The translations under genes and the position numbers were made by a program. Below the pieces are notes generated by a model. It was not told where the DNA came from. It made no database searches and saw nothing but the letters and a program-made list of their open reading frames with translations. Positions 30,032-55,081 of a stretch of 64,000 nucleotides of DNA are shown here, one piece after another. This DNA is from an uncultured Pseudobdellovibrionaceae bacterium (GTDB taxonomy: Bacteria > Bdellovibrionota > Bdellovibrionia > Bdellovibrionales > JAGQZY01). Position 1 is the first letter of the stretch; each line of letters starts with the position of its first letter. Location: positions 148,125 through 212,124 of the forward strand of contig CAZPOV010000003.1 of assembly GCA_964588335.1 (NCBI GenBank), written 5' to 3'.

Positions 30032-30056
30032 TAAACCCCACACGAAGGAACAAACA

Positions 30057-30623: not shown

Positions 30624-30646
30624 AAAAAATAGGATAAACTGGGTCC

Positions 30647-31414: not shown

Positions 31415-31440
31415 AACAAATTCCTTTCTATGAAATCAAA

Positions 31441-31470
31441 ACCCTGGCTTTGAAGGTCAGGTTTTTTTTG
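31441..31470 (+). terminator. probable terminator
   Basis: cctggc-tttgaag-gtcagg (one G.U pair) followed by T8. Confidence 0.5.
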
Positions 31471-31765
31471 TATTTAAAGCTCCTGAAAGGGTGCGCTCTC
31501 AGCTCGTGCAAGCGGCGTGGTAAAGCGCTCGGTGAAATACAAGGCTTGTCAGTCAGGAACACAGGAAACAGCTGGGACGGGACAGTCGAGGCCACAGGCA
31601 TAATTTCTTTTTGCTTCCTCAATATCCTGACTGCGATCAATCAACCTGTAGAGTCGGCGGCAATCATCAACCACAGAGTCGTCGCCCCTAAAGACTGAAG
31701 CGACTCTTTAGAAAAAACACATAACTGTCTTAAGATAATGGGTTTTCTTGGCCTGAAAAGATTTT

Positions 31766-32734
31766 TTAAAGTGAAAAATCACTGAGTGCGAAATAGGTGA
31801 AAATCACATCAGCACCGGCTCGCTTAATGCTAAGAAGAGTTTCGCCAATGGCCTTTTCTTGATTCAACCAGCCTTTTTCGGCAGCCGCCATAATCATGGC
31901 ATACTCACCACTGACATTGTACGCCGCAATCGGTAAGGTTGAATGATTTTTAAGATCGGTAATAATATCTAAATAGGCCAGTGCTGGCTTCACCATTAAA
32001 AAATCAGCGCCCTCTTCGCTATCCAGGTCAGCTTCTAAAAGAGCCTCTTTTTTACTGGCAGGACTCATTTGATAGGTTTTCTTGTCGCCAGCTTTGGGTG
32101 CCGAATCGAGAGCTTCACGAAACGGTCCATAAAAGGCGGAAGCGTATTTCGCAGTGTAGGCTATAATCCCTCGATCGGTAAAACCTTTGCCGTCGAGCGC
32201 TTGGCGTATCGCACCGACTCGACCATCCATCATGTCACTGGGAGCGACAATATCAGCGCCGGCTTCGACGTGCAGGACCGCCATCTTTCCTAAAATTTCC
32301 ACCGTTTCATCATTGAGAATCACGCCATCTTTCACCAACCCGTCGTGGCCATCACTGGAATAGGGGTCCAAGGCAATATCAGTGATGACCAGCAATTCTG
32401 GGAACCGTTTTTTGATCTCGGCCACCGCTTGGCAATTCAAGTTCGAGGAGTTCAGCGCTTCACTGGCTTTTGAATCTTTTAACGATTCTTCGATCGAAGG
32501 GAAAAGGGCAACCGCGCCCACGCCTTTTTGCAGAGCTTGTTCGCAGACATTCAACACCTGATCGACGGACCAACGGTACTGCCCCGGCATCGCCGCAATC
32601 TCTTGTTTTTGTTTTGTCCCGTCGACTAAAAACAGGGGATAGACAAAGTCTTTGCGACTCAATTCCGTGTCTTGGCGCCAATGGCGAAGGGTGGCATTTT
32701 TACGATTGCGTCTTGGTCTTTTTGTTAGCTTCAA
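31766..32734 (-). CDS. hemB: porphobilinogen synthase (ALA dehydratase)
   Basis: RPRRNR...RHWRQDTELS N-terminus, ITDIALDPYSSDGHDG, PSDMMDGRV and YASAFYGPFREA motifs. Confidence 0.93.
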   Translation of the reverse strand: MKLTKRPRRNRKNATLRHWRQDTELSRKDFVYPLFLVDGTKQKQEIAAMPGQYRWSVDQVLNVCEQALQKGVGAVALFPSIEESLKDSKASEALNSSNLNCQAVAEIKKRFPELLVITDIALDPYSSDGHDGLVKDGVILNDETVEILGKMAVLHVEAGADIVAPSDMMDGRVGAIRQALDGKGFTDRGIIAYTAKYASAFYGPFREALDSAPKAGDKKTYQMSPASKKEALLEADLDSEEGADFLMVKPALAYLDIITDLKNHSTLPIAAYNVSGEYAMIMAAAEKGWLNQEKAIGETLLSIKRAGADVIFTYFALSDFSL

Positions 32735-33060
32735 TGATTGTCCTCAAGTTCTTCTAAAGATTCTTCTGATTGGTCGGCTAATCCATACTTTAATCGGCAT
32801 TCTTGCAGATGTTGTTTACCCACTTTTCCCATCGAGGCCAAAGAGGTCAGTAAAATACTGATGTCATCGGCGTATCCGCCTGGCAAAAAGTCGGGCACAG
32901 CGTCGACGGGGAGCAATAGGTAGGCGAGAGCGCCCACCAGTAAAGCCTTTTGAGTGACCGAAATGGACGGGTCTTTCATGGTTAAATAAACGGCCTCACT
33001 GGCGGCCATAACCTCTTTCCCAGCTCTGCGACTGTACTTTTGAATAGTCTTCCAATTCAT
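32731..33060 (-). CDS. DUF1232 (YkvA-like) membrane protein
   Basis: LLPVDAVPDFLPGGYADD matches the DUF1232 'D-x-I-P-D-F-x-P-x-x-G-x-x-DD' core. Confidence 0.7.
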   Translation of the reverse strand: MNWKTIQKYSRRAGKEVMAASEAVYLTMKDPSISVTQKALLVGALAYLLLPVDAVPDFLPGGYADDISILLTSLASMGKVGKQHLQECRLKYGLADQSEESLEELEDNH

Positions 33061-33151
33061 TCGATCACCTTGTCATTATTATGGTGCAAAAGTAGGGTAC
33101 GACTTTGCTTGACTCAAGGATAAAGAGTACACTAGAAGCTAAGGACGCACC

Positions 33152-34441
33152 ATGACAAGCACCACGATTCTTACTGTTCTACTTGTTTTCAGTTTCATTA
33201 TCGGTCGATTTCTTCGCCGCTTTGATACCCCCCATTTTATTTTCTCGGGCATGCTTTATTTAATTCTGGGGCTTCTGGTCGGATCTTATATGGGCTTTGG
33301 AATTCTCACTGAAGATCTTCTCTACAAATTGGAACCGATGACTGACCTAATGACGGGAATTGCCGGTTTTTTACTGGGTTTGCGGTTTCGCTTACTCATG
33401 CAATTTAAACGAAGCTTTGTCAGCGGGAGCCTTTTGGGTTTGACCACATTTATTGCCATGGCGTTGGTGATCTTTTTTGTCTCTCCGTTTGCCATTGATT
33501 TTTCGGCCCTGTCTTTTGATGCGACTTTTTTAGAAGGGGTCGGGCACCAGGGCATACTGAGCTACCTATCATTTCCCTTTGATGTCAATCGCAAGCAGTT
33601 CTGGTTTGCCTTGGGTACCAGTGCCACCGCTTGCTCGGCGTCCCTTCTTAGCCTTGGAATGGTTTCAAAGTTTAATAAAACCACCACCGAAATTTCGCGG
33701 GCCCTAAGTATCATTGCGCCGTCAGGGCAGTTTATTGCCATCAGTTTATTGGGCATTTGCTTGGCGATGGCGCGCGCTGATATTTCAGCAACGGCTCTTC
33801 AGATCTCATTGGCCGAATGGATTGTCGCCAGTCTGTTTTCCGGATTCCTGTGTGGAATTCTGTTTTCCCTTTTTATTGGTCGTCAATCCAATGAAAACCG
33901 TATCATGCTGGCGGCCTTGGGAGCCATTATCTTTGCTGCCGGTATCGGCACGCTCTTAAGTGTGTCGTCGTTGTTTGTTTGCTTTATCACCGGTCTAACC
34001 ATCAGCATATTTTCGAGCTACGCCGAAGTTCTGAAAGAGAATCTGGTCCGCGTTGAGGAGCCCATCTTTGTTCTATTGTTGGTGATTGGTGGAGCCTCTT
34101 GGCATCCCGAGATCAACCGCGCTTGGATTCTCCCAGCGGTATACTTCTTAGTTCGAGCTTTGGTGTTTTCTGGCAGTGCCCATTTCATTCATAAAAAAGT
34201 CACGGGTCGTAAATTGGCTCGACTGGGGCAAGGCCTTTTAGGGCAAGATTTGATCGCGGTGGCGATTGCTCTGTCTTTGGCCAAAGAATTCCCTGGGCTA
34301 TCCCAGCTTTTTCTGACAACCATCTTGGGTAGCATCTTTTTAAATGATATCGTCGCCAACTCATTGCTGAAAAAAGTGATTTTGGACAATGAGCAAGCCA
34401 TTGAGGTTCATCCCCTAGCGACAGAGGAAGGTGAAGAATGA
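33152..34441 (+). CDS. polytopic membrane protein, cation:proton antiporter (CPA2)-like, no RCK domain
   Basis: 429 aa and about 12 hydrophobic segments. The N-terminal pattern FIIGRFLRRFDTPHFIFSGMLYLILGLLVGS resembles the Kef/CPA2 'lP-x-v-x-GyllaGillGP' start. It overlaps trkA (ATGA). Confidence 0.55.
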   Translation: MTSTTILTVLLVFSFIIGRFLRRFDTPHFIFSGMLYLILGLLVGSYMGFGILTEDLLYKLEPMTDLMTGIAGFLLGLRFRLLMQFKRSFVSGSLLGLTTFIAMALVIFFVSPFAIDFSALSFDATFLEGVGHQGILSYLSFPFDVNRKQFWFALGTSATACSASLLSLGMVSKFNKTTTEISRALSIIAPSGQFIAISLLGICLAMARADISATALQISLAEWIVASLFSGFLCGILFSLFIGRQSNENRIMLAALGAIIFAAGIGTLLSVSSLFVCFITGLTISIFSSYAEVLKENLVRVEEPIFVLLLVIGGASWHPEINRAWILPAVYFLVRALVFSGSAHFIHKKVTGRKLARLGQGLLGQDLIAVAIALSLAKEFPGLSQLFLTTILGSIFLNDIVANSLLKKVILDNEQAIEVHPLATEEGEE

Positions 34442-35775
34442 AAATTGTGATAGTGGGCGCTGGCGATGTGGGAAGCTACCTTGCGAAAGATCTTTCGCAA
34501 CGGTCCGAGGATGTCATTATTGTCGATACCGATTCGCGAGCCTTAGAAAGAGTTGAAGAAAAAACCGATGTGATGACGATGCGAGGCAACGGCACCTTTC
34601 GCAAAACCTTAGCCGAAGTGGGTGTTCAATCGGCCGACCTGGTGGTGGGTGTAACAAGTCACGATAATACAAACCTGGTCATTGCCTCCCTGGCTGCCAG
34701 TCTTGGTGCCAAGCGAACAGTCGCTCGTGTTGATGCTCCTGAGTTCTTTATGACCAAGGGTGGAATTGAACGCGGGGTGCTGGATAGTTTTGCCATCGTC
34801 TGTGCCTCGCGACTGGTCAGTGCCGAGCTTTTACGGTTGGTGCGTCGAATTGAAATGCCTTATGTTGAAAATTTCTCTTCCAACTCGATTACGGTCGCTA
34901 TGGTGGAGGTCAATGAAGACTGCCGGTTTTTAGAAAAATCGGGGAGTGACTTAGAGTTGGGAAAAAATGCTAAAGTCATTGGAGTGTTTCGCGACGGCGA
35001 ACTCCGCCGCCCCTTTGATCTCGCCCATCTCTACAATGGCGATAAAATTCTTTTGGCCTCAACATTGGAAAAACTTCCCATTGCCATGCGCCGATTGGTG
35101 CAGATCCCTGGAAAGAAAGCCGTGATTATTGGCGGTGGAGACGTCGGCTACCAACTTTCAAAATCTCTGCAAGAGGTGGAAAACCGCCTGACTGTTATTG
35201 ATGTCGATCGAAGGCGCTGTGAATTCTTAGCTGACAACCTGGATCACGCCACCATTGTTCATGGCGATGGCACAAGCTTAGCCCTGCTTCAAGAAGAGCA
35301 TGTGGAGATGGCGGATTACATTCTAGCAGTGACCCGTGCCGACGAGGTGAACTTGATGTCGTCCCTGGTTTCCCAAGAAATTGGTGTTGATAACACCTTC
35401 ACCTTGGTGCATCGACCTGGCTACGCTCACGTCTACGAGCATTTAGGAATTAAAGGAACAGCCAGTGCCCATGAGTTGATTTCAAAAGCGGTCAACAAGT
35501 ACTTTCCCAATCAAATTATTCTGACCGAATCTCCCATACCGGACACCGACTATTTGGTGGGTGAATTTCAAGTTCCCTATCATGTGACTAACAACAATCT
35601 TAAAATTCGCGACTTATCAATTCCTCCGGGATGTTATTTGGTGGGAATTTCTCGCAACGAAGAGTTTTATTTTGGAGACGGGGATTCTGAAATTCATCCG
35701 GGCGACATCGTTATTGTCGTGCTGAAGAAAAAAGAACTAAAGGGTCTTGAAAATATGTTCAAGAAACTGAAGTAA
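34438..35775 (+). CDS. trkA: Trk system K+ uptake protein TrkA (two RCK/KTN + TrkA_C units)
   Basis: MKIVIVGAGDVGSYLA and a second AVIIGGGDVGYQLS Rossmann motif. Length is 445 aa. Confidence 0.9.
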   Translation: MKIVIVGAGDVGSYLAKDLSQRSEDVIIVDTDSRALERVEEKTDVMTMRGNGTFRKTLAEVGVQSADLVVGVTSHDNTNLVIASLAASLGAKRTVARVDAPEFFMTKGGIERGVLDSFAIVCASRLVSAELLRLVRRIEMPYVENFSSNSITVAMVEVNEDCRFLEKSGSDLELGKNAKVIGVFRDGELRRPFDLAHLYNGDKILLASTLEKLPIAMRRLVQIPGKKAVIIGGGDVGYQLSKSLQEVENRLTVIDVDRRRCEFLADNLDHATIVHGDGTSLALLQEEHVEMADYILAVTRADEVNLMSSLVSQEIGVDNTFTLVHRPGYAHVYEHLGIKGTASAHELISKAVNKYFPNQIILTESPIPDTDYLVGEFQVPYHVTNNNLKIRDLSIPPGCYLVGISRNEEFYFGDGDSEIHPGDIVIVVLKKKELKGLENMFKKLK

Positions 35776-35784
35776 GGATTTTCA

Positions 35785-37245
35785 TTGCAAAAACGTATTG
35801 TGGCCTACTATGTGGGTCAGCTTTTCATCATTTTATCTTTTTTCATGCTAGCGCCGCTAGCCATGGCCTATTATGACAACGCTCAGGAATCACTCAACGC
35901 TTACATGATGGCCATTTTGATTTCCATCGGCTCAGGAATTTTACTGCGCTATTTTGCACACCGACTGAAGGTGAATATTCTCTCGATTTCCCGCAAGGAT
36001 GCCTTTGGTATTGTGGCTCTTGGATGGGTCGGTTCCGGATTTATCAGTGGTCTGCCTTTCTTTTTTGAAGGTAGCATTGCTGACCTAAGTGCCTCCACTT
36101 TTGAAGCGATTTCAGGGCTTACCACCACTGGCGCCACAGTTATCAACGATATTGAATCCTTGTCGCGAGCCACCCATTTGTGGCGCGTGCTCTTGCATTG
36201 GATCGGTGGGATGGGAATTGTGGTTCTTTTCGTGGCTATTTTTCCCCACATGGGCCTGGGAGGAAAACATCTTTTTAAAACCGAAGTGGCGGGTCCCATC
36301 ACTGAAGGTTTGAAGCCGCGGATCAAGCAGACCGCTTTGCGCCTGTGGTGGGTCTATATGATGTTCACCGCTGCCTGCACGGCTCTTCTGTTCCTGTGCG
36401 GACTCTCTCTTTTTGATTCGATCTGTCACGCTTTTTCAACTCTTTCCACTGGTGGTTTTTCTACCCGTGCCGCCAGTGTCGGAGCATTTAACAACCCCAT
36501 GGCCGAATGGGTGATCATTATTTTCATGCTCGCTGGTGGTGTCAACTTTGGTCTTTACTACGGACTGTTCCGTGGAAAATTTCAAAAGCTTTTCACCAGT
36601 GTTGAAGTTCGTTTTTTTCTCCTTTTAAATTTGGTCGTTGGCCTGGTGATCTTTTTCATGACGACCCATTTCGAAAGTGGTAAGTGGACCGAAGAGCTCA
36701 GAGACTCCTTTTTCCAAACTGTGGCGGTGACCACAACCACGGGTTTAATGACCGCCGATTTTGATCTCTACCCTTTGGTTAGTAAATACCTCCTTTTTAT
36801 CTGCATGTTTATTGGCGGTTGTGCCGGATCAACGGCGGGAGGCCTTAAGGTTTCTCGAGTTCTCATCGTTTTTAAACGCTGTATTCAAGAACTTCGCCTG
36901 ACTTTGCACCCGCAAGAGGTGGTTTCTACAAAACTGGGTAAGCAAACCATTTCACGTCGGGTTCTGAGCTCGGTGTTTATCTTCTTTTGCTCCTATTTCC
37001 TGCTCTACCTTTTTGGTGTCTTTATCATGTCACTCTTAGGTCTGGACGGGGAGTCGGCCGCCAGCAGTGTGGTCGCGGCTCTATCCAGTGTGGGCCCTGG
37101 ATTTGGAGCGGTCGGACCGACGCAAAGCTACAATTTCATTCATCCCATTGGAAAATTAGTGCTATGCTTTTACATGATCGCCGGACGTCTTGAAATTTTT
37201 GTACTACTGACTCTGCTAACGCCATCATTCTGGAGGAAAGGTTAA
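35785..37245 (+). CDS. trkH: Trk/Ktr K+ transporter membrane subunit TrkH
   Basis: Four selectivity-filter-like motifs (GLTTTGATV, TLSTGGFS, VTTTTGLMT, AGSTAGGLKVSR). Length is 486 aa. Confidence 0.9.
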   Translation: MQKRIVAYYVGQLFIILSFFMLAPLAMAYYDNAQESLNAYMMAILISIGSGILLRYFAHRLKVNILSISRKDAFGIVALGWVGSGFISGLPFFFEGSIADLSASTFEAISGLTTTGATVINDIESLSRATHLWRVLLHWIGGMGIVVLFVAIFPHMGLGGKHLFKTEVAGPITEGLKPRIKQTALRLWWVYMMFTAACTALLFLCGLSLFDSICHAFSTLSTGGFSTRAASVGAFNNPMAEWVIIIFMLAGGVNFGLYYGLFRGKFQKLFTSVEVRFFLLLNLVVGLVIFFMTTHFESGKWTEELRDSFFQTVAVTTTTGLMTADFDLYPLVSKYLLFICMFIGGCAGSTAGGLKVSRVLIVFKRCIQELRLTLHPQEVVSTKLGKQTISRRVLSSVFIFFCSYFLLYLFGVFIMSLLGLDGESAASSVVAALSSVGPGFGAVGPTQSYNFIHPIGKLVLCFYMIAGRLEIFVLLTLLTPSFWRKG

Positions 37246-40200
37246 ATGAGAAAAGTTTTTATTCTGTTTATTCTTTTCTCAATCAGCTTTGCCTTAAAGG
37301 GTGCTGGTATCCTGAGTGACACCCACAATTCGGTTCTCCTAGCCATTGGATTGGTGATATTGGCAGCCTATACTTTGTCTGAGGTGGGTTCGACTTTGAA
37401 ACTCCCGCGGGTCACCGGCTATATTTTAACTGGTCTTCTCCTGGGTCCTTACGCTTTAAAGATTCTTTCGGTCACTGTTGTTAAAGAAATCGAGATGTTT
37501 AACACCTTGGCGATCGGCTTGATTGCCACAACCGCCGGTTTGGAGCTGCATTTTTCATCACTGAAAAAAGTGATCGCACCTATTTTGTCGACTTCGGCTT
37601 TAAAAATCCTATTTTTAGCGATAACCAGCGTCGGCGCTTTTTATATAGCCAATATGTATATTCACGATTTCGGTCTGGGCATGGGATTACCACTGATCTC
37701 TTTAGCCTTGGTTTTTGCCGCATTGGCTTTAGGAACCTCTCCGGCGATTTCGATAGCGGTTATTTCCGAAATGAAGGCAAAAAGTCGCATGAGCCAAATG
37801 GTTCTGGGTTCGGCCATCGTCAAAGATGTCTTGGTGGTGGTTATCCTTGCGGTTTGTATCTCGTTCACGAAATCGATCACCATTGGTGGCGGGGACATTG
37901 GCTCTAGTTTCTTACATTTGATGGAAGAGCTGGCTTACTCCCTTTTGGCCGGAGGTGTTTTAGGGGCTCTTTTCATTGGCTACTTGAAGTTTGTTCGCAA
38001 AGAAATGTTTTTATTTATTGCGGCTATGATTTTAACCACAGCCGAGGTCAGTCAGACTTTACATCTTGAGCTTCTGTTGGTTTTTATCGTCGCCGGAATT
38101 GTGGTTCGCAACTTCTGTGAGGAGCAACACATTCTGCATGAAGCTCTAGAAAAAGTCTCACTGCCGGTGTTTGTCGTCTTCTTTACCAATGTTGGAGCCG
38201 GTCTGGATTTGACCTCGACCTGGGCTTTCTTACCGGTGGCAGGACTGTTATTTGCCACTCGAGCTTTATCTTTCATAGGTGGTTCTTGGTTGGCCGGCGC
38301 CTGGCATGGTGAATCCGCGCCCATTCAAAAGAAAATATGGCTGGGGTATTTGCCACAAGCCGGGGTCACCCTCGGGTTGATCCAGATTGCTTCAAAAAGT
38401 CTTCCGGAACATGCGTCTATTATAACCAATGTTGGGATCGGCTTGGTAACATTGAATCTTTTAATCGGGCCCATTTTTCTACGCATGGTTTTGCAGGCCG
38501 AGGAGCCGCAAGGGGACACTGAAGAGGAGAGCACTCAAGACTCCACCACCATTGAGGATGTGCAGTCAGAACGACCGCCGCAGAAGCCCGCTGAGGTGTC
38601 TGAGTTTGACAGTGATTTCGACCTCATGCTGCACTCTCACACCGAGGACATGGATGATCCTCTTTTAGAGAAACAGTATTATGAATTGTCACAAGCGGTT
38701 TACGATGTTTTCAAAAAATCGCAAGTTCTCCCTCAAAAAGCCATTTTAAATACCTTTCTGGAAGCCCTTGAGAAAATGGGTGACCTCCCAGAAAAAGAGA
38801 TCGTTAACAAAATCGACGATCATTTTCGCAAAATGGGTGAGAAAGGACGTGACATCTACAATGCGATTGCCGCTTATAAAAAAGAAGTGGATCGACAAGT
38901 TGTGGTTATGAAAAGGCCGTACCCAGCCTCCGGCATTTACCTGCAAAAAGGTGACTCGGTTGTCGTGCAAGCCAAAAAACTTATGCAACGACCTTACTAT
39001 TGGTTTGCCAAGCGTCCGACTCGAGAAATTCCTTTGCGGAAAATAGCGAAATACAACCTTGATCCCATGATTGGCGCTTTTTCACTCAGTATGATCAACT
39101 CCTGGTACCGCTTACTGGGCAAACACATTGCTATTTTTCAAAAATCTTTAGAGGATCATGAGTTCAATTCAACAGAGATTATCGAAAAAATCTCAAAAGA
39201 AAACGAAATCTGGTTTCGTTCCATCCAATCCGATTTTCACAAAGAGTTTTCACAGGCTTCCAATCGATGGGTGAGCCACCTTAGGAACGTCAACACACCA
39301 GCGCTGCCCGATACGCACCTGCGCTACTCACAAGTGGAACCACAGATCTCAGAGAATTTTGAACGGGCCAAGAAATTCTCAGTCAACTGGGAAGAGAAGT
39401 TTGTTTACTGTCGAAACCGCCTAAAGGTGATCGTACAGTCGGCGCTGCTTTCCAATGCCGTTGAAACTCTGCTTGATGAAAAGTTTTTTGGTCCCGTCAA
39501 CACTGCCAAAACCAATACTGACCTTATGGTCAAAGACGTGTTTTCGTTCTTTGATCGCATCGAAAGGGAACTGAAAGAGACGGAGTCTTTTGATAAAACG
39601 GCCTACGAAAAACTGCATCAAGACACCAAAGCTTTTAGTGAAGATCATCTGCAGGCGGAAATTAAGACCAAATATGTGCGTGGAAGCTTTCGCCTGTTAA
39701 ACCGTGATATTTCATTGAATTTAAAAAAGAACCTTCCCAAAGAGGAGGGGTCTTTTCAGATCGCCTCGGAGCAAACACCGGCCGACCAGGTGAGTTCCCC
39801 ATCAGAAATAATAGTCAAGAAAATCAATCTCACCGAACTGTTTGAACAAAGCATTCTTATTAACTTTCTTCCGGTCATTGAAGAAAGAATCGAAGGGGTC
39901 TCAAACTACCTTGAGTCGCTCTTGCTTGAGATGGAGCAGGCCTTCTCAATCATTCACTACAGTCTTGAATCTCAGATTGCCGGCGAATCGGAATTGAACC
40001 CAAAAGAACTCACCGATAGCCTTTTAACGTCGATCACTTCCGAAAGAGAAAAGATCAATGAGATCTATGAAGGACTGGTGAGTTACATCGATTCTTCAAG
40101 TATCGCCACGGAAAAACTTTTAGAAGAGGTTCAAGGTGAGGTTCGTTTGGGGATTGAGCGCTTTTCAGTGGTCAACACCGCCAAAAATCAATTTCGCCAA

Positions 40201-41475
40201 CGTCTTTACAATATTGTGCAAAAGGGCCGACAGCTTAAACATGACGTTGACGATAAAATTGACAGCGCTTATCAGAAAATCAAGAAACTTGGCATTCAGC
40301 AAACCGAGCGTGAAGTTGATCGAGCGATCAGCAACAAAATTCAGTCGAAAACTCTGGACACCACCACCATTCGACAGTTTATCAAAGAAACCTATTCCTT
40401 TGATCGCGAGCTTAAAAAATTACCGCGTGTCTATTTCCGACTTTTCAGTTTGGATCCGATTCAAGATCGACGCTTCTTTGTGGCGCATCGGGATCGCTGG
40501 CGTCACTTTGAGCCCTTCACACGCGACCAGGGTTTTACCGAAAGCCAAAAGATCTTGGTCATCGGCGACCGCGGAATCGGCAAGTCGTCGCTTATCAACG
40601 TGGCTCAGATGGAAATTCAGAACACGCGCTTGATACGCATCGACGGTGAGTCACAAGGTGGTCCGCTCAATGAACTGACTCGAGCTCTAGGCTGCAAGAA
40701 CAACAATGCCTCTATACTGGCTGCGCTTCGTAAAAACGGAGCCACCATCGTGATGGACAACGTCGATCAGATGCTCAGTAAAAACAATCTCGATCGTTTC
40801 GAGCGTCTGTTTGATATTATTAAACAGTCACCTCACGAAGCCCATTGGATTCTTTCAATCACCAGTTTCAACCTGGATCCTTTGGACCGAGCCTTCAAGA
40901 TTCGCAGTCTTTTCAATAAGCTTATTGACCTGAATGAGATCAACTTAGAGACCTGCAAAGAAATCATCTTGGGCCGCCATCGGTTGAGTGGTTTAGAAAT
41001 TGAGTATCCTCGAACCTTAATGAGCGATCTGGCCATGAAAGTCGGTTTTTCTTCTGAGGATGAAATGTTTTTCCGCGTTCTTTATGAACGTTCGGGTGGG
41101 CACCTTCGTCACTTGATCTACCTGTGGCTTCTTAGTCTCGAAGATTCCGATGGCAAGAAAATCAAGCTGTCACTCAATCGCTCTATCGACCGTGGCTTAC
41201 CGATGATTCACGAATTCTCGGTTTTACAAAAATACATTCTTCACGAGCTCTACAGCTTTCATTCACTCAGTGTTCAGCAAATGAGCCAAAACTTGGGAGT
41301 GTCTTACTCCATTGTCGACAACGAAACTCAGTACCTGGAGCACTGTGGACTGATTGAAACCAAAGGGATTGACCGCAGTGTTTTCGAAATCCCCAACCCT
41401 CTGGTGATGCCGGTGGGTACGGAACTTAAAAAGGAGGGCGTCCTGAATGAAGGATTCAACAACTTACGCCTCTAG
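37246..41475 (+). CDS. 1409-aa fusion: N-terminal CPA2 (Kef-like) antiporter domain + acidic linker + ~650-aa helical region + P-loop ATPase (AAA/ATPase_2-like) + C-terminal winged-HTH-like domain
   Basis: CPA2 start LKLPRVTGYILTGLLLGP and ~12 TM segments up to about residue 410. Walker A is VIGDRGIGKSSL (40564-40590) and Walker-B-like ATIVMDNVDQ. The C-terminal LSVQQMSQNLGVSYSIVDNETQYLEHCGLIETKG is wHTH-like. The ATG directly abuts the trkH stop. Confidence 0.8.
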   Translation: MRKVFILFILFSISFALKGAGILSDTHNSVLLAIGLVILAAYTLSEVGSTLKLPRVTGYILTGLLLGPYALKILSVTVVKEIEMFNTLAIGLIATTAGLELHFSSLKKVIAPILSTSALKILFLAITSVGAFYIANMYIHDFGLGMGLPLISLALVFAALALGTSPAISIAVISEMKAKSRMSQMVLGSAIVKDVLVVVILAVCISFTKSITIGGGDIGSSFLHLMEELAYSLLAGGVLGALFIGYLKFVRKEMFLFIAAMILTTAEVSQTLHLELLLVFIVAGIVVRNFCEEQHILHEALEKVSLPVFVVFFTNVGAGLDLTSTWAFLPVAGLLFATRALSFIGGSWLAGAWHGESAPIQKKIWLGYLPQAGVTLGLIQIASKSLPEHASIITNVGIGLVTLNLLIGPIFLRMVLQAEEPQGDTEEESTQDSTTIEDVQSERPPQKPAEVSEFDSDFDLMLHSHTEDMDDPLLEKQYYELSQAVYDVFKKSQVLPQKAILNTFLEALEKMGDLPEKEIVNKIDDHFRKMGEKGRDIYNAIAAYKKEVDRQVVVMKRPYPASGIYLQKGDSVVVQAKKLMQRPYYWFAKRPTREIPLRKIAKYNLDPMIGAFSLSMINSWYRLLGKHIAIFQKSLEDHEFNSTEIIEKISKENEIWFRSIQSDFHKEFSQASNRWVSHLRNVNTPALPDTHLRYSQVEPQISENFERAKKFSVNWEEKFVYCRNRLKVIVQSALLSNAVETLLDEKFFGPVNTAKTNTDLMVKDVFSFFDRIERELKETESFDKTAYEKLHQDTKAFSEDHLQAEIKTKYVRGSFRLLNRDISLNLKKNLPKEEGSFQIASEQTPADQVSSPSEIIVKKINLTELFEQSILINFLPVIEERIEGVSNYLESLLLEMEQAFSIIHYSLESQIAGESELNPKELTDSLLTSITSEREKINEIYEGLVSYIDSSSIATEKLLEEVQGEVRLGIERFSVVNTAKNQFRQRLYNIVQKGRQLKHDVDDKIDSAYQKIKKLGIQQTEREVDRAISNKIQSKTLDTTTIRQFIKETYSFDRELKKLPRVYFRLFSLDPIQDRRFFVAHRDRWRHFEPFTRDQGFTESQKILVIGDRGIGKSSLINVAQMEIQNTRLIRIDGESQGGPLNELTRALGCKNNNASILAALRKNGATIVMDNVDQMLSKNNLDRFERLFDIIKQSPHEAHWILSITSFNLDPLDRAFKIRSLFNKLIDLNEINLETCKEIILGRHRLSGLEIEYPRTLMSDLAMKVGFSSEDEMFFRVLYERSGGHLRHLIYLWLLSLEDSDGKKIKLSLNRSIDRGLPMIHEFSVLQKYILHELYSFHSLSVQQMSQNLGVSYSIVDNETQYLEHCGLIETKGIDRSVFEIPNPLVMPVGTELKKEGVLNEGFNNLRL

Positions 41476-42187
41476 CGCTCTCCCCATTGATTTGCCCGAA
41501 CTATCGATGCAAGTGGTTTCGTTCTTGCAGATTGGTCTTTTTATCGCCTTGGCCACTCTCACTTATTATGTCACCCGCAAGTTTTTACAGACCATGGGAA
41601 ACACTGGCGCACTTGAAAAAAGCACTCTCACTTATCAAGTGTTAAACATCGCCACTTTTGTACTACCGGGATTAATTTTCCTGTATGGTCTTACCAACGT
41701 CTCTCAGGACTCGTTATTTGTTTCTTTATTATTTTTCGTTATTTTCAGCATTGTTTTCGGCTACTCATTGATCGACCCTATGAAGTCCATTTTAGCGGCC
41801 CTGATGATCACTGTGCGTGGCGATCTGCGAGTTGGAGACTACATCACTATGGGAGAGATTGAGGGCGAAATTGCAGCCATAGGAGCCTTTAATATATTGG
41901 TTCTAACAAAAAATGGATCACGGACTTTTATCCCCACCAATAAAATTCTGAACCAGGCTTACGAAATCCACGCTAAAAAAGGCGGGCCATCCATTATGAT
42001 CAACGTGCCATCCGATAAAATCAGCAAACGCAATTTGGAGCGCTTGGCTCACCTGTGTTCCTTCAAAAGAAAAGGTTCTGACATTCGTATTTCAACCATG
42101 GACGGTCAGCATCGTCTTTCCATTGAAATCGTAAACCGTGAAGCTCGCCCTTGGGTGCAAAAATATTTCGACCGCCACCTTCAATAG
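41447..42187 (+). CDS. small MscS-like mechanosensitive channel family protein
   Basis: Three or four TM helices, then GDLRVGDYITMGEIEGEIAAIGAFNILVLTKNGSRTFIPTNKIL (MscS beta-domain pattern). It overlaps the upstream gene by 29 nt. Confidence 0.6.
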   Translation: MKDSTTYASSALPIDLPELSMQVVSFLQIGLFIALATLTYYVTRKFLQTMGNTGALEKSTLTYQVLNIATFVLPGLIFLYGLTNVSQDSLFVSLLFFVIFSIVFGYSLIDPMKSILAALMITVRGDLRVGDYITMGEIEGEIAAIGAFNILVLTKNGSRTFIPTNKILNQAYEIHAKKGGPSIMINVPSDKISKRNLERLAHLCSFKRKGSDIRISTMDGQHRLSIEIVNREARPWVQKYFDRHLQ

Positions 42188-42269
42188 TCTGGCGACGTTG
42201 GCATAGTCTTCAGGCCTATTCTTCAAAATTAGCCCCCAGCATTAGATAATCTTAGTATGGGGGTGATTG

Positions 42270-43109
42270 ATGAAAGTTTGGGGTCTTTTTCTATTTGTTC
42301 TAGGAGTATCGACGCAGGCCTTTGCATTGAATATTGCGAAACCAGTAGAGACAGCTTTTCTCAACGCCGGTGGTTCCAGCAAAGCTCTAACTCATTTGAA
42401 GTGTTTTCTGCATAATTACGGGCAAGCCTCGTTTCGATTAAAAAGCGCGCAATTGTCGGAGCGTTGTAATAATATGGCCGGCAATAAGACAGCTGTGAAC
42501 ATCAACAGCACCAAGCATGTGGTGGTGGTCGATTACACCAAACCCTCATCTCAGCGTCGTCTTTTTATCGTCGATCTGGAAAATCCCCTGCCCCCTTATG
42601 TCGAGACTTACTACGTCAGTCATGGTCGCTACCAAGCCAGCTACGACAATACGATTAAAGCGATCCATCAAAACACCATCGAAGAGATTGATTACTATAG
42701 TAATGTTTATGGCTCCAACGCTTCGTCTTCAGGCTTCTACATCAGCGGACACATCTATCAGGGGCGCTGGGTCGGACCGCAAGGAGACAAGTTTTCACTG
42801 ATTGTTCACGGGATCAATAAAGGTCTTAACGACAATGCCTGTGACCGGGCTGTGGTGTTGCACGGTAACTCTTACATTAAAGAACAAGGCCCTGATCAGG
42901 GCGTGTCTCGTATGAGCAGTGGCTGTTTTATGGTCGATTACGACTGGGTCAACCAAATTATTGGTCAGATTCGCGGAGGTGGTGGCACACACTTTCCAAA
43001 CGAACCGCGCCTGGGTGGCGTTTTACTGTTCACCTATGGCAACACCGAAGCGCAGCTTCCCTCCAACTATTACTGCACCGAGGACAGCCGAAGCAGTCTC
43101 CGGCTCTGA
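42270..43109 (+). CDS. secreted L,D-transpeptidase-like protein (YkuD_2-like)
   Basis: Signal peptide, RRLFIVDL, VSHGRYQ, VVLHGNSYI, and the SSGCFMV catalytic-Cys context typical of the YkuD_2 family. Confidence 0.6.
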   Translation: MKVWGLFLFVLGVSTQAFALNIAKPVETAFLNAGGSSKALTHLKCFLHNYGQASFRLKSAQLSERCNNMAGNKTAVNINSTKHVVVVDYTKPSSQRRLFIVDLENPLPPYVETYYVSHGRYQASYDNTIKAIHQNTIEEIDYYSNVYGSNASSSGFYISGHIYQGRWVGPQGDKFSLIVHGINKGLNDNACDRAVVLHGNSYIKEQGPDQGVSRMSSGCFMVDYDWVNQIIGQIRGGGGTHFPNEPRLGGVLLFTYGNTEAQLPSNYYCTEDSRSSLRL

Positions 43110-43162
43110 TAACCACAACAATGAAAGATGCCGTCAGCCTAAGACGGTCTCCTGAGACGCTT

Positions 43163-44329
43163 TTAACGGATGGCTTCGATACCAGTCACTTCAAGTCCGA
43201 CGACCAGACGATGAATGTCTTCAGTGCCTTCGTATGTGTTGACGGTTTCTAAGTTGAGCATGTGGCGAATCACTGGATACTCGTCAATGATTCCGTTTCC
43301 ACCCAGCATGTCGCGAGCTTCGCGCGCCACATCCAAAGCCATACGACAATTGTTCATTTTTGCAAGAGACACGTGATGGGGCTGCATTTTACCGGCCTCT
43401 TTTAGACGTCCCAATTGCAACGCCAACAATTGTCCTTTGGTGATTTCCTGTACCATCTTCACAAGCTTGGCCTGCGCCAGCTGATATCCAGCCAGTGGTT
43501 TTGTGAAAATCGTGCGTTCTTTCGAGTAGTGAAGAGCCTCGTGATAACAAGTGTTCGCAGCCCCTAATACACCCCAGGCGATTCCATAGCGCGCTTGGGT
43601 TAAGCAACTTAAGGGGCCCTTTAGGCCTTCGATGTTTGGAAGAATGGCATCTTCTGGTATCACACAATCTTGCATGTGCAACTCACTGGTGGTGCTCACG
43701 CGCAACGAGAACTTTCCTTTCATGGTCGACGTGCTGAACCCCTTGGTTTTGGTGTCGACGATAAAGCCACGGACTTTACCATCAAGCTTGGCCCAAACAA
43801 CGGCGATATCACTGACACAACCATTGGTGATCCACATTTTGTTACCATTTAACTTAAAACCACCATCGACCTTTTCAGCGGTGGTCAACATACCGCCAGG
43901 ATTGGAACCGGCATCGGGCTCGGTCAGGCCGAAACAACCGATCATTTCACCTTTGGCCAATTGGGGAAGATATTTTTGTTTTTGCTCTTCCGAACCATAA
44001 GCATAAATCGGATACATCACCAGGGCCCCTTGTACGGAACAAAACGATCGAATTCCTGAATCGGCACGCTCCAGTTCCTGCATCAGCAGGCCATAAGAAA
44101 CATCACCCAATCCTGGGCAATCGTAGCCCTTGATGGTTGAACCCAATAAGCCAAGCTCAGCAAATCGAGGCACCAGCTCCATAGGGAATTTTTCTTCGCG
44201 ATGAGCTTCTTGCAGCTTCGGTATGATTTCCTTTGTGGCAAACTCGCGAACCGTGTTGCGAACCATGAGTTCTTCTTCGCTCAGTAGACTATCAAAATCC
44301 ATATAATTGAGTGATTCATAGGCAGCCAT
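43163..44329 (-). CDS. gcdH: glutaryl-CoA dehydrogenase (acyl-CoA dehydrogenase family)
   Basis: 388 aa with IGCFGLTEPDAGSNPGGM, KMWITNG and the C-terminal YEGTEDIHRLVVG motif. Confidence 0.85.
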   Translation of the reverse strand: MAAYESLNYMDFDSLLSEEELMVRNTVREFATKEIIPKLQEAHREEKFPMELVPRFAELGLLGSTIKGYDCPGLGDVSYGLLMQELERADSGIRSFCSVQGALVMYPIYAYGSEEQKQKYLPQLAKGEMIGCFGLTEPDAGSNPGGMLTTAEKVDGGFKLNGNKMWITNGCVSDIAVVWAKLDGKVRGFIVDTKTKGFSTSTMKGKFSLRVSTTSELHMQDCVIPEDAILPNIEGLKGPLSCLTQARYGIAWGVLGAANTCYHEALHYSKERTIFTKPLAGYQLAQAKLVKMVQEITKGQLLALQLGRLKEAGKMQPHHVSLAKMNNCRMALDVAREARDMLGGNGIIDEYPVIRHMLNLETVNTYEGTEDIHRLVVGLEVTGIEAIR

Positions 44330-44466
44330 GCTGATCTCCTTTTCTCGCTATAAGTCTAGCACCAATGTTTAAATTAGCATTGCTATGACCTATAGGATAA
44401 GGGAAAATGCCCGTTAAGAATAGCTATTGACCCTTATGCATCATATCAATCGGGGAGAGGAGTGAA

Positions 44467-55078: not shown

Positions 55079-55081
55079 CTC

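What the first reader, a model, noticed from the sequence alone, without database searches (positions are those of the whole stretch)
33152..42187. Five translationally coupled ion-transport genes: CPA2-like, trkA, trkH, CPA2-ATPase fusion, MscS-like
- **Seen, coupling:** all five genes are on the plus strand. The junctions are ATGA (34438-34441), a 9-nt gap (35775/35785), direct abutment (37245/37246) and a 29-nt overlap (41447-41475).
- **Seen, domain content:** the two CPA2-like membrane proteins, neither with its own RCK domain, flank trkA, which encodes four RCK lobes.
- **Inference:** a single RCK protein may gate uptake (TrkH) and efflux (CPA2) modules. The MscS-like channel would act as a relief valve, giving an integrated K+/osmotic homeostasis unit.
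- **Context:** such bundling is not the usual trkA-trkH pair organisation.
Basis: partly seen in the sequence, partly recalled or inferred. Interest (0 to 1): 0.55.

Follow-up and report, generated by a model that had tools for sequence, protein, structure and literature searches.

The report
Conserved ion-transport operon with ATPase-fused antiporter
The five coupled ion-transport genes are real and recur in the same order across two bacterial phyla, and their conserved core is an undescribed 1,400-residue antiporter-like protein fused to an ATP-binding switch, paired with a degenerate copy of itself and a small pressure-relief channel.

Summary
**Observation:** confirmed. Five plus-strand ORFs lie at the stated coordinates with the stated junctions, and each start follows a Shine-Dalgarno-like motif.

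**Conservation:** the order g1-trkA-trkH-big-mscS is complete in 36 of 83 related loci. These come from Bdellovibrionota, Oligoflexia and Myxococcota, including cultured Enhygromyxa salina and Plesiocystis pacifica. At least 26 further loci have g1-big-mscS without trkAH. The invariant core is therefore the triad, and trkAH is a recurrent insert between g1 and big.

**Gene identities:**
- **g1 (429 aa)** has no Pfam hit but has the cation/proton antiporter (CPA) fold. It has Gln where the ion-binding Asp should be.
- **big (1409 aa)** combines a very conserved CPA2-type membrane domain, about 650 residues of long helices, and a C-terminal ORC/Cdc6/STAND-like P-loop ATPase with a winged helix. 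Its ion-site motif GTSP / K-D / R is unusual and invariant.
- **Neither CPA protein** has an RCK domain.

**Interpretation:** most likely a monovalent-cation/osmotic homeostasis operon in which the fused ATPase, not TrkA, regulates the antiporter. K+ specificity of the antiporter is not supported by its motif.

**Novelty:** no literature was found. I rate it a new variant of a known kind.

The parts
33152..34441 (+). g1: a 429-aa CPA-fold membrane protein. It is a degenerate paralogue of big's membrane domain, with Gln in place of the ion-binding Asp and the TM10/11 Arg (R335) retained.
   Evidence: - No Pfam or NCBIfam hit.
- BLASTP against big aa 1-465: 23% identity over 415 aa, E 6e-7.
- hhalign of the g1 family against big's TM family: probability 99.4%, E 3.8e-21.
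- AlphaFold2 model: pLDDT 77.9, pTM 0.80.
- Foldseek: PaNhaP, NapA, KefC and SLC9C1 at TM-score 0.59-0.67.
- Present upstream of big in every locus with enough upstream sequence.
34438..35775 (+). trkA: a tandem-RCK gating subunit (2 x TrkA_N and 2 x TrkA_C). Both GxGxxG...D nucleotide-binding motifs are intact.
   Evidence: - Pfam and NCBIfam NF007039, 345 bits against a cutoff of 293.
- Sequence read directly.
- ATGA overlap with g1 in the window; the equivalent -4 overlap recurs in most 5-gene loci.
35785..37245 (+). trkH: the TrkH-family K+ translocating subunit, with a TTG start 9 nt after the trkA stop.
   Evidence: - PF02386, 231 bits.
- TIGR00933, 314.9 bits, just below its cutoff of 331.
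- SD-like 'taaggat' upstream of the start.
37246..38535 (+). big, aa 1-430: a CPA2-type 13-TM membrane domain. Invariant residues are T164 S165 (P166 near-invariant), K193 D194, N289 and R339, plus Y368 A372 G373 in a near-invariant YLPQAGV segment. The CPA motif reads G-T-S-P / no Glu5 / K6-D7 / R8.
   Evidence: - PF00999, 98 bits, found in 34 of 34 family members scanned.
- Conservation analysis.
- Profile alignment to NHE6/NHE9 places GTSP on ATDP and K-D on N-D.
38536..40476 (+). big, aa 431-1077: a cytoplasmic region of very long helices (up to about 100 residues) with two small beta hairpins. Scattered residues are invariant or nearly so: D570, R593, P596, R693, S695, W715, Y1063, R1076. 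Function unknown.
   Evidence: - AlphaFold2 model: mean pLDDT 86.5.
- The PDB profile search gave only weak helical-bundle, apolipoprotein and LnaB hits.
- No Pfam hit.
40477..41475 (+). big, aa 1078-1409: a P-loop NTPase of ORC/Cdc6/STAND type, with lid and winged-helix domain.
- Walker A is G1107xxGxG[K/R][S/T]S (Lys in the window).
- Walker B is hhhhD1171-[D/N] (Asn in the window).
- R1244 and W1201 are invariant.
- The winged-helix domain (WHD) is acidic in this genome.
   Evidence: - Pfam on 34 members: AAA_22 in 19, AAA_16 in 10, MarR/HTH_5/TrmB in several, nSTAND1 in 3, NACHT in 2.
- Foldseek: ORC4 8s0e_D at E 1.2e-8, archaeal Orc/Cdc6, RuvB, and one NLR resistosome.
- Motif counts.
- WHD composition.
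41447..42187 (+). A small MscS-like channel (246 aa) comprising TM helices and the MscS beta-domain. Its start overlaps the end of big by 29 nt.
   Evidence: - PF00924, 40.7 bits against a cutoff of 20.2.
- Weak NCBIfam MscS hits.
- A homologue lies immediately downstream of big in nearly all loci.

Best explanation
**What it is.** This is a vertically inherited operon of Bdellovibrionota and Myxococcota for monovalent-cation and osmotic homeostasis.

**The invariant core is a triad.**
- **big** is a CPA2-type cation/proton exchanger domain tethered through about 650 residues of long helices to a C-terminal ORC/Cdc6/STAND-like nucleotide-binding switch with a winged helix.
- **g1** is a transport-degenerate CPA-fold paralogue of big's membrane domain.
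- **The third member** is a minimal MscS-like release valve.

**TrkA and TrkH.** In about half of the loci, including this window, the K+ uptake pair TrkA/TrkH sits between g1 and big. It is translationally coupled to them, so uptake, exchange and release proteins are made together.

**Proposed mechanism (inferred).**
- The nucleotide state of big's own ATPase module gates its exchanger domain. This replaces the RCK/KTN domain used by Kef-type CPA2 proteins.
- The ATPase module binds nucleotide but probably hydrolyses poorly.
- g1 most likely serves as the partner protomer of a CPA dimer.
- TrkA gates TrkH as usual.

**Shown here:** gene order, coupling, conservation, folds and motifs.

**Inferred:** ion transported, gating by the ATPase, the g1-big partnership, and any crosstalk with TrkA.
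For: - **Coupled genes:** ORFs and junctions; Shine-Dalgarno motifs inside the upstream genes.
- **Conserved order:** 36 complete 5-gene loci and at least 26 3-gene loci, all on the same strand and mostly with -4 overlaps.
- **Co-inheritance:** distance matrices of all five genes correlate, Spearman 0.77-0.92.
- **Repeated loss or gain of trkAH:** 5-gene and 3-gene forms interleave on the big tree.
- **Family size:** more than 380 full-length homologues of about 1400 aa and 381 clusters at 50% identity with E <= 1e-10.
- **Selection on transport-like function:** the TM domain is far more conserved than the cytoplasmic part, about 0.7 against 0.4 per-column conservation. The ion-site residues T164, S165, D194 and R339 are invariant.
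- **ATPase module:** the fold is supported by Pfam on 34 members, a confident AlphaFold2 model with pLDDT 86.5 and Foldseek hits to ORC4/Cdc6/RuvB at E about 1e-8. The P-loop glycines and Walker B Asp are invariant or nearly so, while the Walker A Lys is Arg in 74 of 120 members. That pattern fits a binding switch rather than a motor.
- **g1:** CPA fold but Gln at the Asp position.
- **TrkA and TrkH:** canonical by NCBIfam/Pfam, with intact GxGxxG motifs.
- **Not a genomic island:** GC content of the cluster matches the rest of the window.
Against: - No experiment exists for any member, and no paper was found.
- Lys at CPA motif position 6, next to the ion-binding Asp, is not among the variants (D/N/Q) discussed for working antiporters (PMC6181914, PMC11150392). 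With Arg at position 8 it could neutralise the cation site, so big may not be a conventional cation/proton exchanger.
- The window's ATPase has Asn at the second Walker B position, so ATP turnover is doubtful.
- Myxobacterial members have an ArsR/MarR-like recognition helix with Arg/His, which would fit DNA binding rather than transporter gating.
- The g1-big heterodimer and ATPase gating are untested, because no multimer prediction was available.
- The correlation between distance matrices is confounded by shared species phylogeny.
- Operon status rests on gene spacing and synteny only.
Confidence: 0.5

Rival explanations
1. **The first reader's model.** The single tandem-RCK protein TrkA gates both TrkH (uptake) and the RCK-less CPA proteins g1 and big (K+ efflux), with MscS acting as a relief valve. 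The result would be one RCK-governed K+ homeostat.
For: - g1 and big lack RCK domains, while trkA lies between them.
- The g1/trkA ATGA overlap recurs in most 5-gene loci.
- All five genes co-evolve.
- From my own knowledge rather than a test here: separate RCK subunits do regulate CPA2 antiporters in other bacteria, for example KhtT-KhtU.
Against: - At least 26 loci have g1-big-mscS with no trkA/trkH in the cluster, and these interleave phylogenetically with 5-gene loci.
- big has its own large ATPase regulatory module.
- No region of big is more conserved when trkAH is present.
- g1 lacks the ion-binding Asp.
- big lacks the Kef 'QD' motif, and its GTSP motif has a non-polar position 4, which by the Masrati rule is Na+-type rather than K+-type (PMC6181914).
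Confidence: 0.15
2. **Transceptor model.** big is not primarily a transporter. It is a membrane-embedded sensor-regulator whose CPA-like domain senses ion or pH status, with a site occupied by its own Lys193. The ORC/STAND-like ATPase with winged helix then signals, by oligomerising or binding DNA, to control expression or activity of TrkAH, the MscS-like channel or other targets.
For: - The K-D-R site carries a built-in positive charge.
- The C-terminus is NTPase plus wHTH. MarR, ArsR and TrmB Pfam hits occur in several members, and Arg/His occupy the recognition helix in myxobacterial members.
- Soluble relatives with a similar helical-ATPase-WHD module but no transporter domain exist.
- A sigma-54 activator follows the cluster in some Polyangiaceae loci.
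Against: - In the window's protein and its Bdellovibrionales relatives the WHD is acidic. Net charge is about -4, and the recognition helix 'SYSIVDNETQYLEH' has no Lys or Arg, so DNA binding is unlikely here.
- Conservation of the whole TM domain is extreme, including the unwound-helix and Asp positions. That is what an active carrier would show.
- WHDs are integral, non-DNA-binding parts of STAND modules (established knowledge).
Confidence: 0.2
3. **No integrated system.** The five genes are adjacent and co-transcribed only for convenient co-regulation of independent ion-transport proteins. They make no physical or allosteric contact, and g1 is a decaying duplicate.
For: - Each gene product belongs to a family that can function alone.
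- trkAH can be absent.
- g1 is less conserved than big's TM domain and lacks the key Asp.
Against: - g1 is retained in every locus with enough upstream sequence across two phyla, with invariant Gly, Arg and Trp positions. That is not the pattern of a pseudogene.
- Fixed order and overlapping stop/start codons persist at about 27-60% mean pairwise protein identity.
- trkAH always sits at exactly the same position, between g1 and big.
Confidence: 0.15

Closest known systems
Kef-type CPA2 K+/H+ exchangers (E. coli KefC/KefB, plant KEA), regulated by a fused C-terminal RCK/KTN domain
   Same: - CPA2-type 13-TM fold, no Glu at motif position 5, and the invariant ion-binding Asp (D7).
- A cytoplasmic nucleotide-binding regulatory domain fused C-terminally.
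- A link to K+ homeostasis genes.
   Different: - There is no RCK/KTN domain. In its place are about 650 residues of long helices plus an ORC/STAND-like P-loop ATPase with WHD.
- The motif is K-D with Arg8 instead of Q-D with Lys8, and GTSP instead of LSST.
- TIGR00932 scores 62.9 bits against a cutoff of 238.
- There are no KefF/KefG partners.
- It is paired with a degenerate CPA paralogue.
TrkAH K+ uptake system (TrkH channel-like subunit gated by the TrkA tandem-RCK ring)
   Same: The window's trkA and trkH are canonical by NCBIfam/Pfam, adjacent and coupled.
   Different: Here the pair is embedded inside another conserved gene triad, between g1 and big, in many species of two phyla. It is dispensable for that triad.
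CPA2 antiporters with a separate RCK subunit (e.g. Bacillus KhtTU/YhaTU), recalled from knowledge and not tested here
   Same: An RCK-less CPA2 membrane protein is encoded next to a stand-alone RCK protein.
   Different: - The RCK protein here is a bona fide TrkA, encoded with its own TrkH partner.
- The association is absent in at least 26 loci.
- No interaction evidence exists.
Eukaryotic CPA exchangers with very large cytoplasmic regulatory regions (plant SOS1; sperm SLC9C1)
   Same: - A CPA-fold membrane domain followed by 600-1000 cytoplasmic residues that auto-regulate transport.
- These were among the best structural matches of g1's fold.
   Different: - They belong to CPA1, not CPA2.
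- Their regulatory domains are CNBD/VSD or helical autoinhibitory domains, not P-loop ATPases.
- The resemblance is an analogy, not homology of the cytoplasmic part.
ORC/Cdc6 and STAND (AAA_16/AAA_22/NACHT) NTPases with lid and winged-helix domains
   Same: - The C-terminal 330 residues share this fold: Foldseek E 1e-8 to ORC4, Cdc6 and RuvB, plus an NLR hit.
- The Walker B is the hhhhDD type typical of STAND.
- The WHD follows the lid.
   Different: - The module is fused to the end of a transporter through a long helical stalk.
- There are no sensor repeats and no known DNA-replication role.
- The Walker A Lys is often Arg.
- Pfam scores are mostly below gathering thresholds.
MscS-family mechanosensitive channels (MscS; MscK/'KefA')
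   Same: The pore-helix/beta-domain signature PF00924 is present. A plausible role as an osmotic release valve sits alongside K+ transport genes.
   Different: - It is much smaller than MscS relatives such as MscK.
- It scores far below the NCBIfam MscS equivalog cutoffs, 20 bits against 500.
- It is always encoded directly after big, often overlapping it.

Membership tests
TrkA (Trk system RCK subunit) | Two tandem RCK domains (2 x TrkA_N and 2 x TrkA_C) scoring above the curated equivalog cutoff | tested here: met
   - Pfam finds TrkA_N in 2 stretches and TrkA_C in 2 stretches.
- NF007039 scores 345 bits against a cutoff of 293.
- Both GxGxxG...D motifs were read in the sequence.
TrkH/KtrB superfamily K+ translocating subunit | Full-length match to the TrkH profile | tested here: met
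   - PF02386 scores 231 bits (cutoff 27) over aa 67-478.
- TIGR00933 scores 314.9 bits, just under its cutoff of 331.
- The NF008020 equivalog is not reached, 351 against 866.
- The protein is therefore a family member, not an E. coli TrkH equivalog.
CPA (Na_H_Exchanger, PF00999) - big | Match to PF00999 above the gathering score over the whole TM domain | tested here: met
   98.3 bits (cutoff 26.2) over aa 42-416, and 34 of 34 family members match.
CPA2 subfamily / Kef-type K+/H+ exchanger - big | TIGR00932 CPA2 subfamily score | tested here: not met
   TIGR00932 scores 62.9 bits against a cutoff of 238.3.
CPA2 subfamily / Kef-type K+/H+ exchanger - big | 'QD' ion-binding motif with Lys at TM11 (KefC Q155-D156, K307) | tested here: not met
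   The motif is K193-D194 with R339. The alignment to NHE6/9 fixes the register (PMC11150392).
CPA2 subfamily / Kef-type K+/H+ exchanger - big | Fused RCK/KTN domain | tested here: not met
   No TrkA_N or RCK hit is found in the window's protein or in the 34 family members scanned.
CPA2 versus CPA1 (Masrati motif rule) | Absence of Glu at motif position 5. CPA1 is defined by Glu5 together with Arg8. | tested here: met
   Position 189 is Ala or Ser where NHE6 has Glu (PMC6181914). By this rule the protein is CPA2-type, although it carries Arg8.
CPA fold - g1 (429 aa) | Direct match to PF00999 | tested here: not met
   No Pfam, NCBIfam or PDB sequence hit at E <= 0.01 to 1.
CPA fold - g1 (429 aa) | Homology to a bona fide CPA domain, and a CPA 3-D fold | tested here: met
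   - hhalign to big's TM family: probability 99.4%, E 3.8e-21 over 379 columns.
- The AlphaFold2 model (pTM 0.80) matches PaNhaP, NapA, KefC and SLC9C1 at TM-score 0.59-0.67.
Functional cation/proton antiporter - g1 | Conserved ion-binding Asp (motif position 7) | tested here: not met
   g1 Q193 aligns with big D194. No conserved acidic residue occurs at this TM position across 70 g1 homologues.
AAA+/STAND P-loop NTPase (ORC/Cdc6-like) - big C-terminus | Walker A and Walker B motifs | tested here: met
   - Walker A GxxGxG[K/R][S/T]S: the glycines are invariant or nearly so, with Lys in 43 and Arg in 74 of 120 members.
- Walker B: D1171 in 119 of 120, with the second position Asp in 91 and Asn in 28.
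- The window has Lys and D-N.
AAA+/STAND P-loop NTPase (ORC/Cdc6-like) - big C-terminus | alpha/beta NTPase core, helical lid and winged helix in 3-D | tested here: met
   - AlphaFold2 pLDDT is mostly above 85 in this part.
- Foldseek hits: ORC4 8s0e_D at E 1.2e-8, Cdc6 1fnn, Orc1 2v1u, RuvB 8efv, and NLR 9h2l.
- This is a prediction, not a solved structure.
AAA+/STAND P-loop NTPase (ORC/Cdc6-like) - big C-terminus | Pfam family score above the gathering threshold | tested here: inconclusive
   - The window protein scores 21.3 bits on AAA_22 (cutoff 27).
- Among other members, AAA_22 matches 19 of 34 and AAA_16 matches 10 of 34, with best E 1.9e-7.
AAA+/STAND P-loop NTPase (ORC/Cdc6-like) - big C-terminus | ATP binding and hydrolysis | not testable with these tools
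   This needs biochemistry.
MscS family | PF00924 beta-domain preceded by a pore-lining TM helix | tested here: met
   - PF00924 scores 40.7 bits (cutoff 20.2) over aa 111-171.
- Hydrophobic helices precede it.
- NCBIfam MscS equivalogs are far below cutoff.
Known anti-phage defence systems (checked because of the STAND-like ATPase) | Significant match to a PADLOC model | tested here: not met
   Only marginal hits with E >= 4e-4, to mad8 and CasR.

The most novel reading that the evidence does not exclude
g1 and the membrane domain of big form an obligate heteromeric CPA exchanger with one active and one dead protomer. Its activity would be switched by an ORC/STAND-like nucleotide-binding module through a long helical stalk. 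In 5-gene organisms it would assemble with TrkAH and the MscS-like channel into one membrane supercomplex coordinating K+ uptake, cation/H+ exchange and solute release. That would be a new class of nucleotide-gated CPA machine, with an unprecedented Lys-Asp ion site.
Probability: 0.2. Interest if true: 0.8.

Novelty: new variant of a known kind. Interest (0 to 1): 0.6.

Why it matters
- **A new form of transporter regulation.** CPA antiporters are known to be regulated by pH sensing, RCK/KTN domains, calmodulin-like partners, cyclic-nucleotide or voltage domains. A P-loop ATPase of the ORC/STAND type fused to a CPA2 domain would be a further way to couple ion exchange to the cell's nucleotide state.
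- **A test of ion-site models.** The invariant Lys-Asp-Arg ion site and the conserved 'dead' paralogue bear on current models of CPA ion binding, electrogenicity and dimer function.
- **A hypothesis for salt and osmotic adaptation.** The fixed embedding of TrkAH in this triad gives a concrete, testable idea of how predatory and marine Bdellovibrionota and Myxococcota manage K+/Na+/H+ balance and turgor.
- **Experiments are feasible.** Cultured carriers exist (Enhygromyxa salina, Plesiocystis pacifica).
- **An annotation gap.** Hundreds of these 1,400-aa proteins are currently labelled only 'cation:proton antiporter'.

Tried and rejected
- **PDB profile search on the middle region.** It gave only low-complexity helical-bundle and apolipoprotein hits, plus a marginal LnaB/Dot hit (E 2.6e-4, domain i-Evalue 0.05). 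I did not accept these as homology.
- **Source assembly.** Looking up the exact protein P0001 to identify the source assembly found nothing on record.
- **Defence-system reading of the STAND-like ATPase.** No significant PADLOC hit.
- **Riboswitch or RNA leader, such as c-di-AMP.** No Rfam match at E <= 0.1 in 30000-45000.
- **Internal promoters and terminators.** There are 11 promoter-like sites against 12.5 expected. There are 24 terminator-like sites against 13 expected, but all are short, weak stems inside T-rich membrane-protein coding sequence. This is not evidence of separation.
- **A TrkA-dependent surface on big.** Per-column divergence and conservation between 5-gene and 3-gene myxobacterial members showed no region selectively constrained when trkAH is present.
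- **Further conserved neighbours.** Only lineage-specific ones turned up: Asparaginase_2 upstream and a sigma-54 activator downstream in Polyangiaceae-type loci, and Peptidase_M28 downstream in Nannocystaceae-type loci. The unit ends at g1 and mscS.
- **Literature.** Four searches found nothing on this fusion or cluster.
- **DNA binding by the WHD in this genome.** Judged unlikely from its acidic composition.

Full report
**1.

The ORF listing returns five plus-strand ORFs at exactly the coordinates given:

| Gene | Coordinates | Length |
|---|---|---|
| g1 | 33152-34441 | 429 aa |
| trkA | 34438-35775 | 445 aa |
| trkH | 35785-37245 | 486 aa, TTG start |
| big | 37246-41475 | 1409 aa |
| mscS-like | 41447-42187 | 246 aa |

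- Each start codon is preceded by a GGAGG/AAGGA-type Shine-Dalgarno motif lying inside the upstream gene.
- The flanking genes are unrelated: hemB and a DUF1232 gene upstream on the other strand, a YkuD-type L,D-transpeptidase downstream, and an acyl-CoA dehydrogenase on the other strand.
- GC content of the cluster matches the rest of the window.
- No Rfam element lies in or around it.
- Consensus scans show no excess of promoter-like sites. The terminator-like hits are weak stems in T-rich coding sequence.

**2. What the genes are**

- **TrkA** is canonical. It has two TrkA_N and two TrkA_C stretches, scores 345 bits on NF007039 against a cutoff of 293, and keeps both GxGxxG...D motifs.
- **TrkH** is a clear family member, with 231 bits on PF02386.
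- **The 246-aa protein** carries the MscS beta-domain: PF00924, 40.7 bits.
- **The 1409-aa protein (big)** matches PF00999 over aa 42-416 and gives weak AAA hits near aa 1100-1230.
Three later tests support it:
  - g1 is a distant paralogue of big's membrane domain: 23% identity over 415 aa, E 6e-7.
  - Profile-profile comparison of the two families gives probability 99.4%, E 3.8e-21.
  - An AlphaFold2 model (pTM 0.80) matches PaNhaP, NapA, KefC and SLC9C1 over its full length at TM-score 0.59-0.67.
- Neither CPA-like protein has an RCK domain.

**3. The cassette is conserved, and its core is a triad**

- big has more than 380 full-length homologues of about 1400 aa. Where a source names them, the name is 'cation:proton antiporter' or 'Kef-type membrane component'.
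- A scan of one genome per species found 148 species encoding a relative. The 80 best loci come from Bdellovibrionales/Pseudobdellovibrionaceae MAGs (one is 96% identical to the window), Oligoflexia, and Myxococcota (Nannocystaceae and Polyangiaceae). Cultured carriers include Enhygromyxa salina and Plesiocystis pacifica SIR-1.
- I searched the six-frame ORFs of all 83 loci with the five window proteins and their myxobacterial counterparts.

| Arrangement | Loci |
|---|---|
| g1-trkA-trkH-big-mscS, complete | 36 |
| same, with split trkA | 1 |
| compatible with 5-gene but cut by a contig end | 9 |
| g1-big-mscS, no trkAH | 26 |
| g1-big (cut by a contig end or dropped by my position filter; two with no or only a weak MscS-like hit) | 7 |

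- All genes lie on one strand. Most junctions are -4 overlaps or gaps of a few bases.
- g1 is present in every locus with enough upstream sequence. An MscS-like gene follows big in nearly all.
- On a neighbour-joining tree of big, 5-gene and 3-gene forms interleave. For example, L012/L039 (5-gene) are sister to L028/L002 (3-gene), and L018 to L019.
- Among 5-gene loci the pairwise distance matrices of all five proteins correlate, Spearman 0.77-0.92.
- The simplest reading is an ancestral five-gene unit that lost trkAH repeatedly. The correlation is partly due to shared species phylogeny.
- No other neighbour is conserved beyond single lineages.

**4. Anatomy of big**

*Membrane domain (aa 1-430).*
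- It is far more conserved than the rest: about 0.7 against 0.4 per-column conservation, with 58% mean column identity.
- A profile alignment to solved NHE6/NHE9 fixes the register. big G163-T164-S165-P166 aligns with the unwound-helix A-T-D-P, and K193-D194 aligns with the N-D motif.
- In the eight-position CPA motif of Masrati et al. (PMC6181914), big reads G-T-S-P / no Glu5 / K6-D7 / R8 (R339).
- K193, D194, T164, S165 and R339 are invariant in 120 sequences.
- Known working antiporters have D, N or Q at position 6. KefC uses Q155-D156 with K307 (PMC11150392). Lys at position 6 is not discussed in either paper.
- The non-polar position 4 would, by the Masrati rule, suggest a Na+-type rather than a K+-type CPA2 site. 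This is a hint only.
- g1 has Gln where big has D194 and lacks a conserved acidic residue there. It keeps the Arg equivalent to R339.

*Cytoplasmic part (aa 431-1409).*
- It was modelled with 68 homologues, giving mean pLDDT 86.5.
- About 650 residues of very long helices, two of them 85-100 residues long, are followed by an alpha/beta P-loop domain, a helical lid and a winged helix.
- Foldseek against the PDB finds ORC4, archaeal Orc1/Cdc6 and RuvB at E 1e-8 to 1e-6, plus one NLR resistosome.
- Pfam on 34 members gives AAA_22 (19), AAA_16 (10), MarR/MarR_2/HTH_5/TrmB (several), nSTAND1 (3) and NACHT (2).
- The P-loop is GxxGxG[K/R][S/T]S, with Arg in 74 and Lys in 43 of 120 members.
- Walker B is hhhhD-[D/N]. 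R1244 and W1201 are invariant.
- The window's protein has Lys in Walker A and D-N in Walker B. This pattern points to a conserved nucleotide-binding switch with weak or no turnover.
- The winged helix has an ArsR/MarR-like 'R-H-x-x-F-L-x-x-A-G-L' signature in myxobacterial members. In the window and its relatives the recognition helix is 'SYSIVDNETQYLEH' and the domain is net acidic, so DNA binding is unlikely here.

*Family size and relatives.*
- An exhaustive phmmer search with the cytoplasmic part finds 381 clusters (at 50% identity) at E <= 1e-10. Most have the same 1400-aa architecture.
- It also finds soluble 900-1030-aa proteins with no transmembrane segment, which match the distal part of the helical region together with the ATPase or the ATPase-WHD alone, and short stand-alone ATPase-WHD proteins.
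- big is therefore a fusion of a CPA2 domain with a member of a wider soluble ATPase family.
- There is no significant match to known defence systems.

**5. How it most likely works**

*Shown.* This is a co-inherited, translationally coupled unit. Its invariant members are an exchanger-like domain with an intact but unusual ion site, a degenerate paralogue of that domain, and an MscS-like channel. A canonical K+ uptake pair is frequently inserted at a fixed position.

*Inferred.*
- The unit serves monovalent-cation and osmotic homeostasis.
- big's own nucleotide-binding module gates its exchanger, taking the role that RCK/KTN plays in Kef proteins.
- g1 is the partner protomer of a CPA dimer. 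CPA exchangers work as dimers, and a retained adjacent paralogue lacking the catalytic Asp is the pattern expected of an asymmetric heteromer.
- TrkA gates TrkH.
- I put this at about 0.5.

- The idea that TrkA also gates the CPA modules has a precedent in separate-RCK CPA2 systems (from my own knowledge).
- Three findings weaken it: the many trkAH-less loci, big's own regulator, and the absence of any region of big more constrained when trkAH is present.
- I give it about 0.15.

*The other rivals.*
- A transceptor or membrane-tethered regulator reading is kept at about 0.2 because of the K-D-R site and the wHTH.
- Plain co-regulation without interaction is kept at about 0.15.

**6. Comparison with what is known, and novelty**

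- TrkA, TrkH, the CPA fold and the MscS domain are all known, so the operon's general theme is not surprising.
- The following appear undescribed. Four full-text searches found nothing:
  - the CPA2-helical stalk-ORC/STAND ATPase-WHD fusion family;
  - its invariant Lys-Asp-Arg site;
  - its obligatory pairing with a degenerate CPA paralogue and a mini-MscS;
  - the fixed embedding of trkAH in that triad across two phyla.
- big fails the membership tests for Kef-type CPA2: no RCK, no QD motif, and a TIGR00932 score below cutoff.
- I rate the finding a new variant of a known kind, with interest 0.6.

**7. Caveats**

- All structural statements rest on predictions.
- Operon status rests on spacing and synteny.
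- Taxon labels of MAGs are as deposited. A few, such as 'Enterobacteriaceae' and 'Acidobacteriota', are probably binning or labelling errors.
- The transported ion is unknown.

Noticed in passing
window 47728-59209 (- strand): Three adjacent giant ORFs of 1219, 1234 and 1375 aa. None has a Pfam match except a weak DUF4953 Met-zincin hit in the 1375-aa one. The first two are distant paralogues, 24% identity over 223 aa, E 1e-8. Their function is unknown.
   Followed up: partly
L002 5558-6715 and 13066-14403; also L003, L012, L028, L042: In Polyangiaceae-type loci an Asparaginase_2 gene lies directly upstream of g1 and overlaps its start in L002. A homologous ORF occurs upstream in 14 loci. A PAS-sigma54-activator-HTH_8 gene directly follows the MscS-like gene. 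This may be a lineage-specific regulator of the cluster.
   Followed up: partly
L026 14145-16574 and 16 other Nannocystaceae-type loci: A gene of about 800 aa containing Peptidase_M28 recurs downstream of the MscS-like gene. It is lineage-specific and probably not part of the unit.
   Followed up: partly
proteins P0239, P0240, P0244, P0256, P0261: These soluble 900-1030-aa proteins have no transmembrane segment. P0239, P0240 and P0244 match the distal helical region plus the ATPase of big's cytoplasmic module; P0256 and P0261 match only the AAA_16-type ATPase-WHD part. This family is itself uncharacterised. Its genomic contexts were not examined.
   Followed up: no
protein P0159 (955 aa, 42% identical to big aa 453-1398): This is a stand-alone version of big's whole cytoplasmic region with no CPA domain. 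It could be a split gene, a gene-calling artefact or a real soluble form.
   Followed up: no
window 40477-41475 (big aa 1326-1400): The winged helix is acidic and lacks basic residues in the recognition helix in the window and its Bdellovibrionales relatives. Myxobacterial members have Arg/His there. The two lineages may use this domain differently.
   Followed up: partly
window 32731-33060 (- strand) and 42267-43109 (+ strand): A DUF1232 membrane protein is divergently oriented 91 nt upstream of g1. A YkuD_2 L,D-transpeptidase lies 79 nt downstream of the MscS-like gene on the same strand. The 5-gene Bdellovibrionales locus read in full (L001) has different neighbours.
   Followed up: partly
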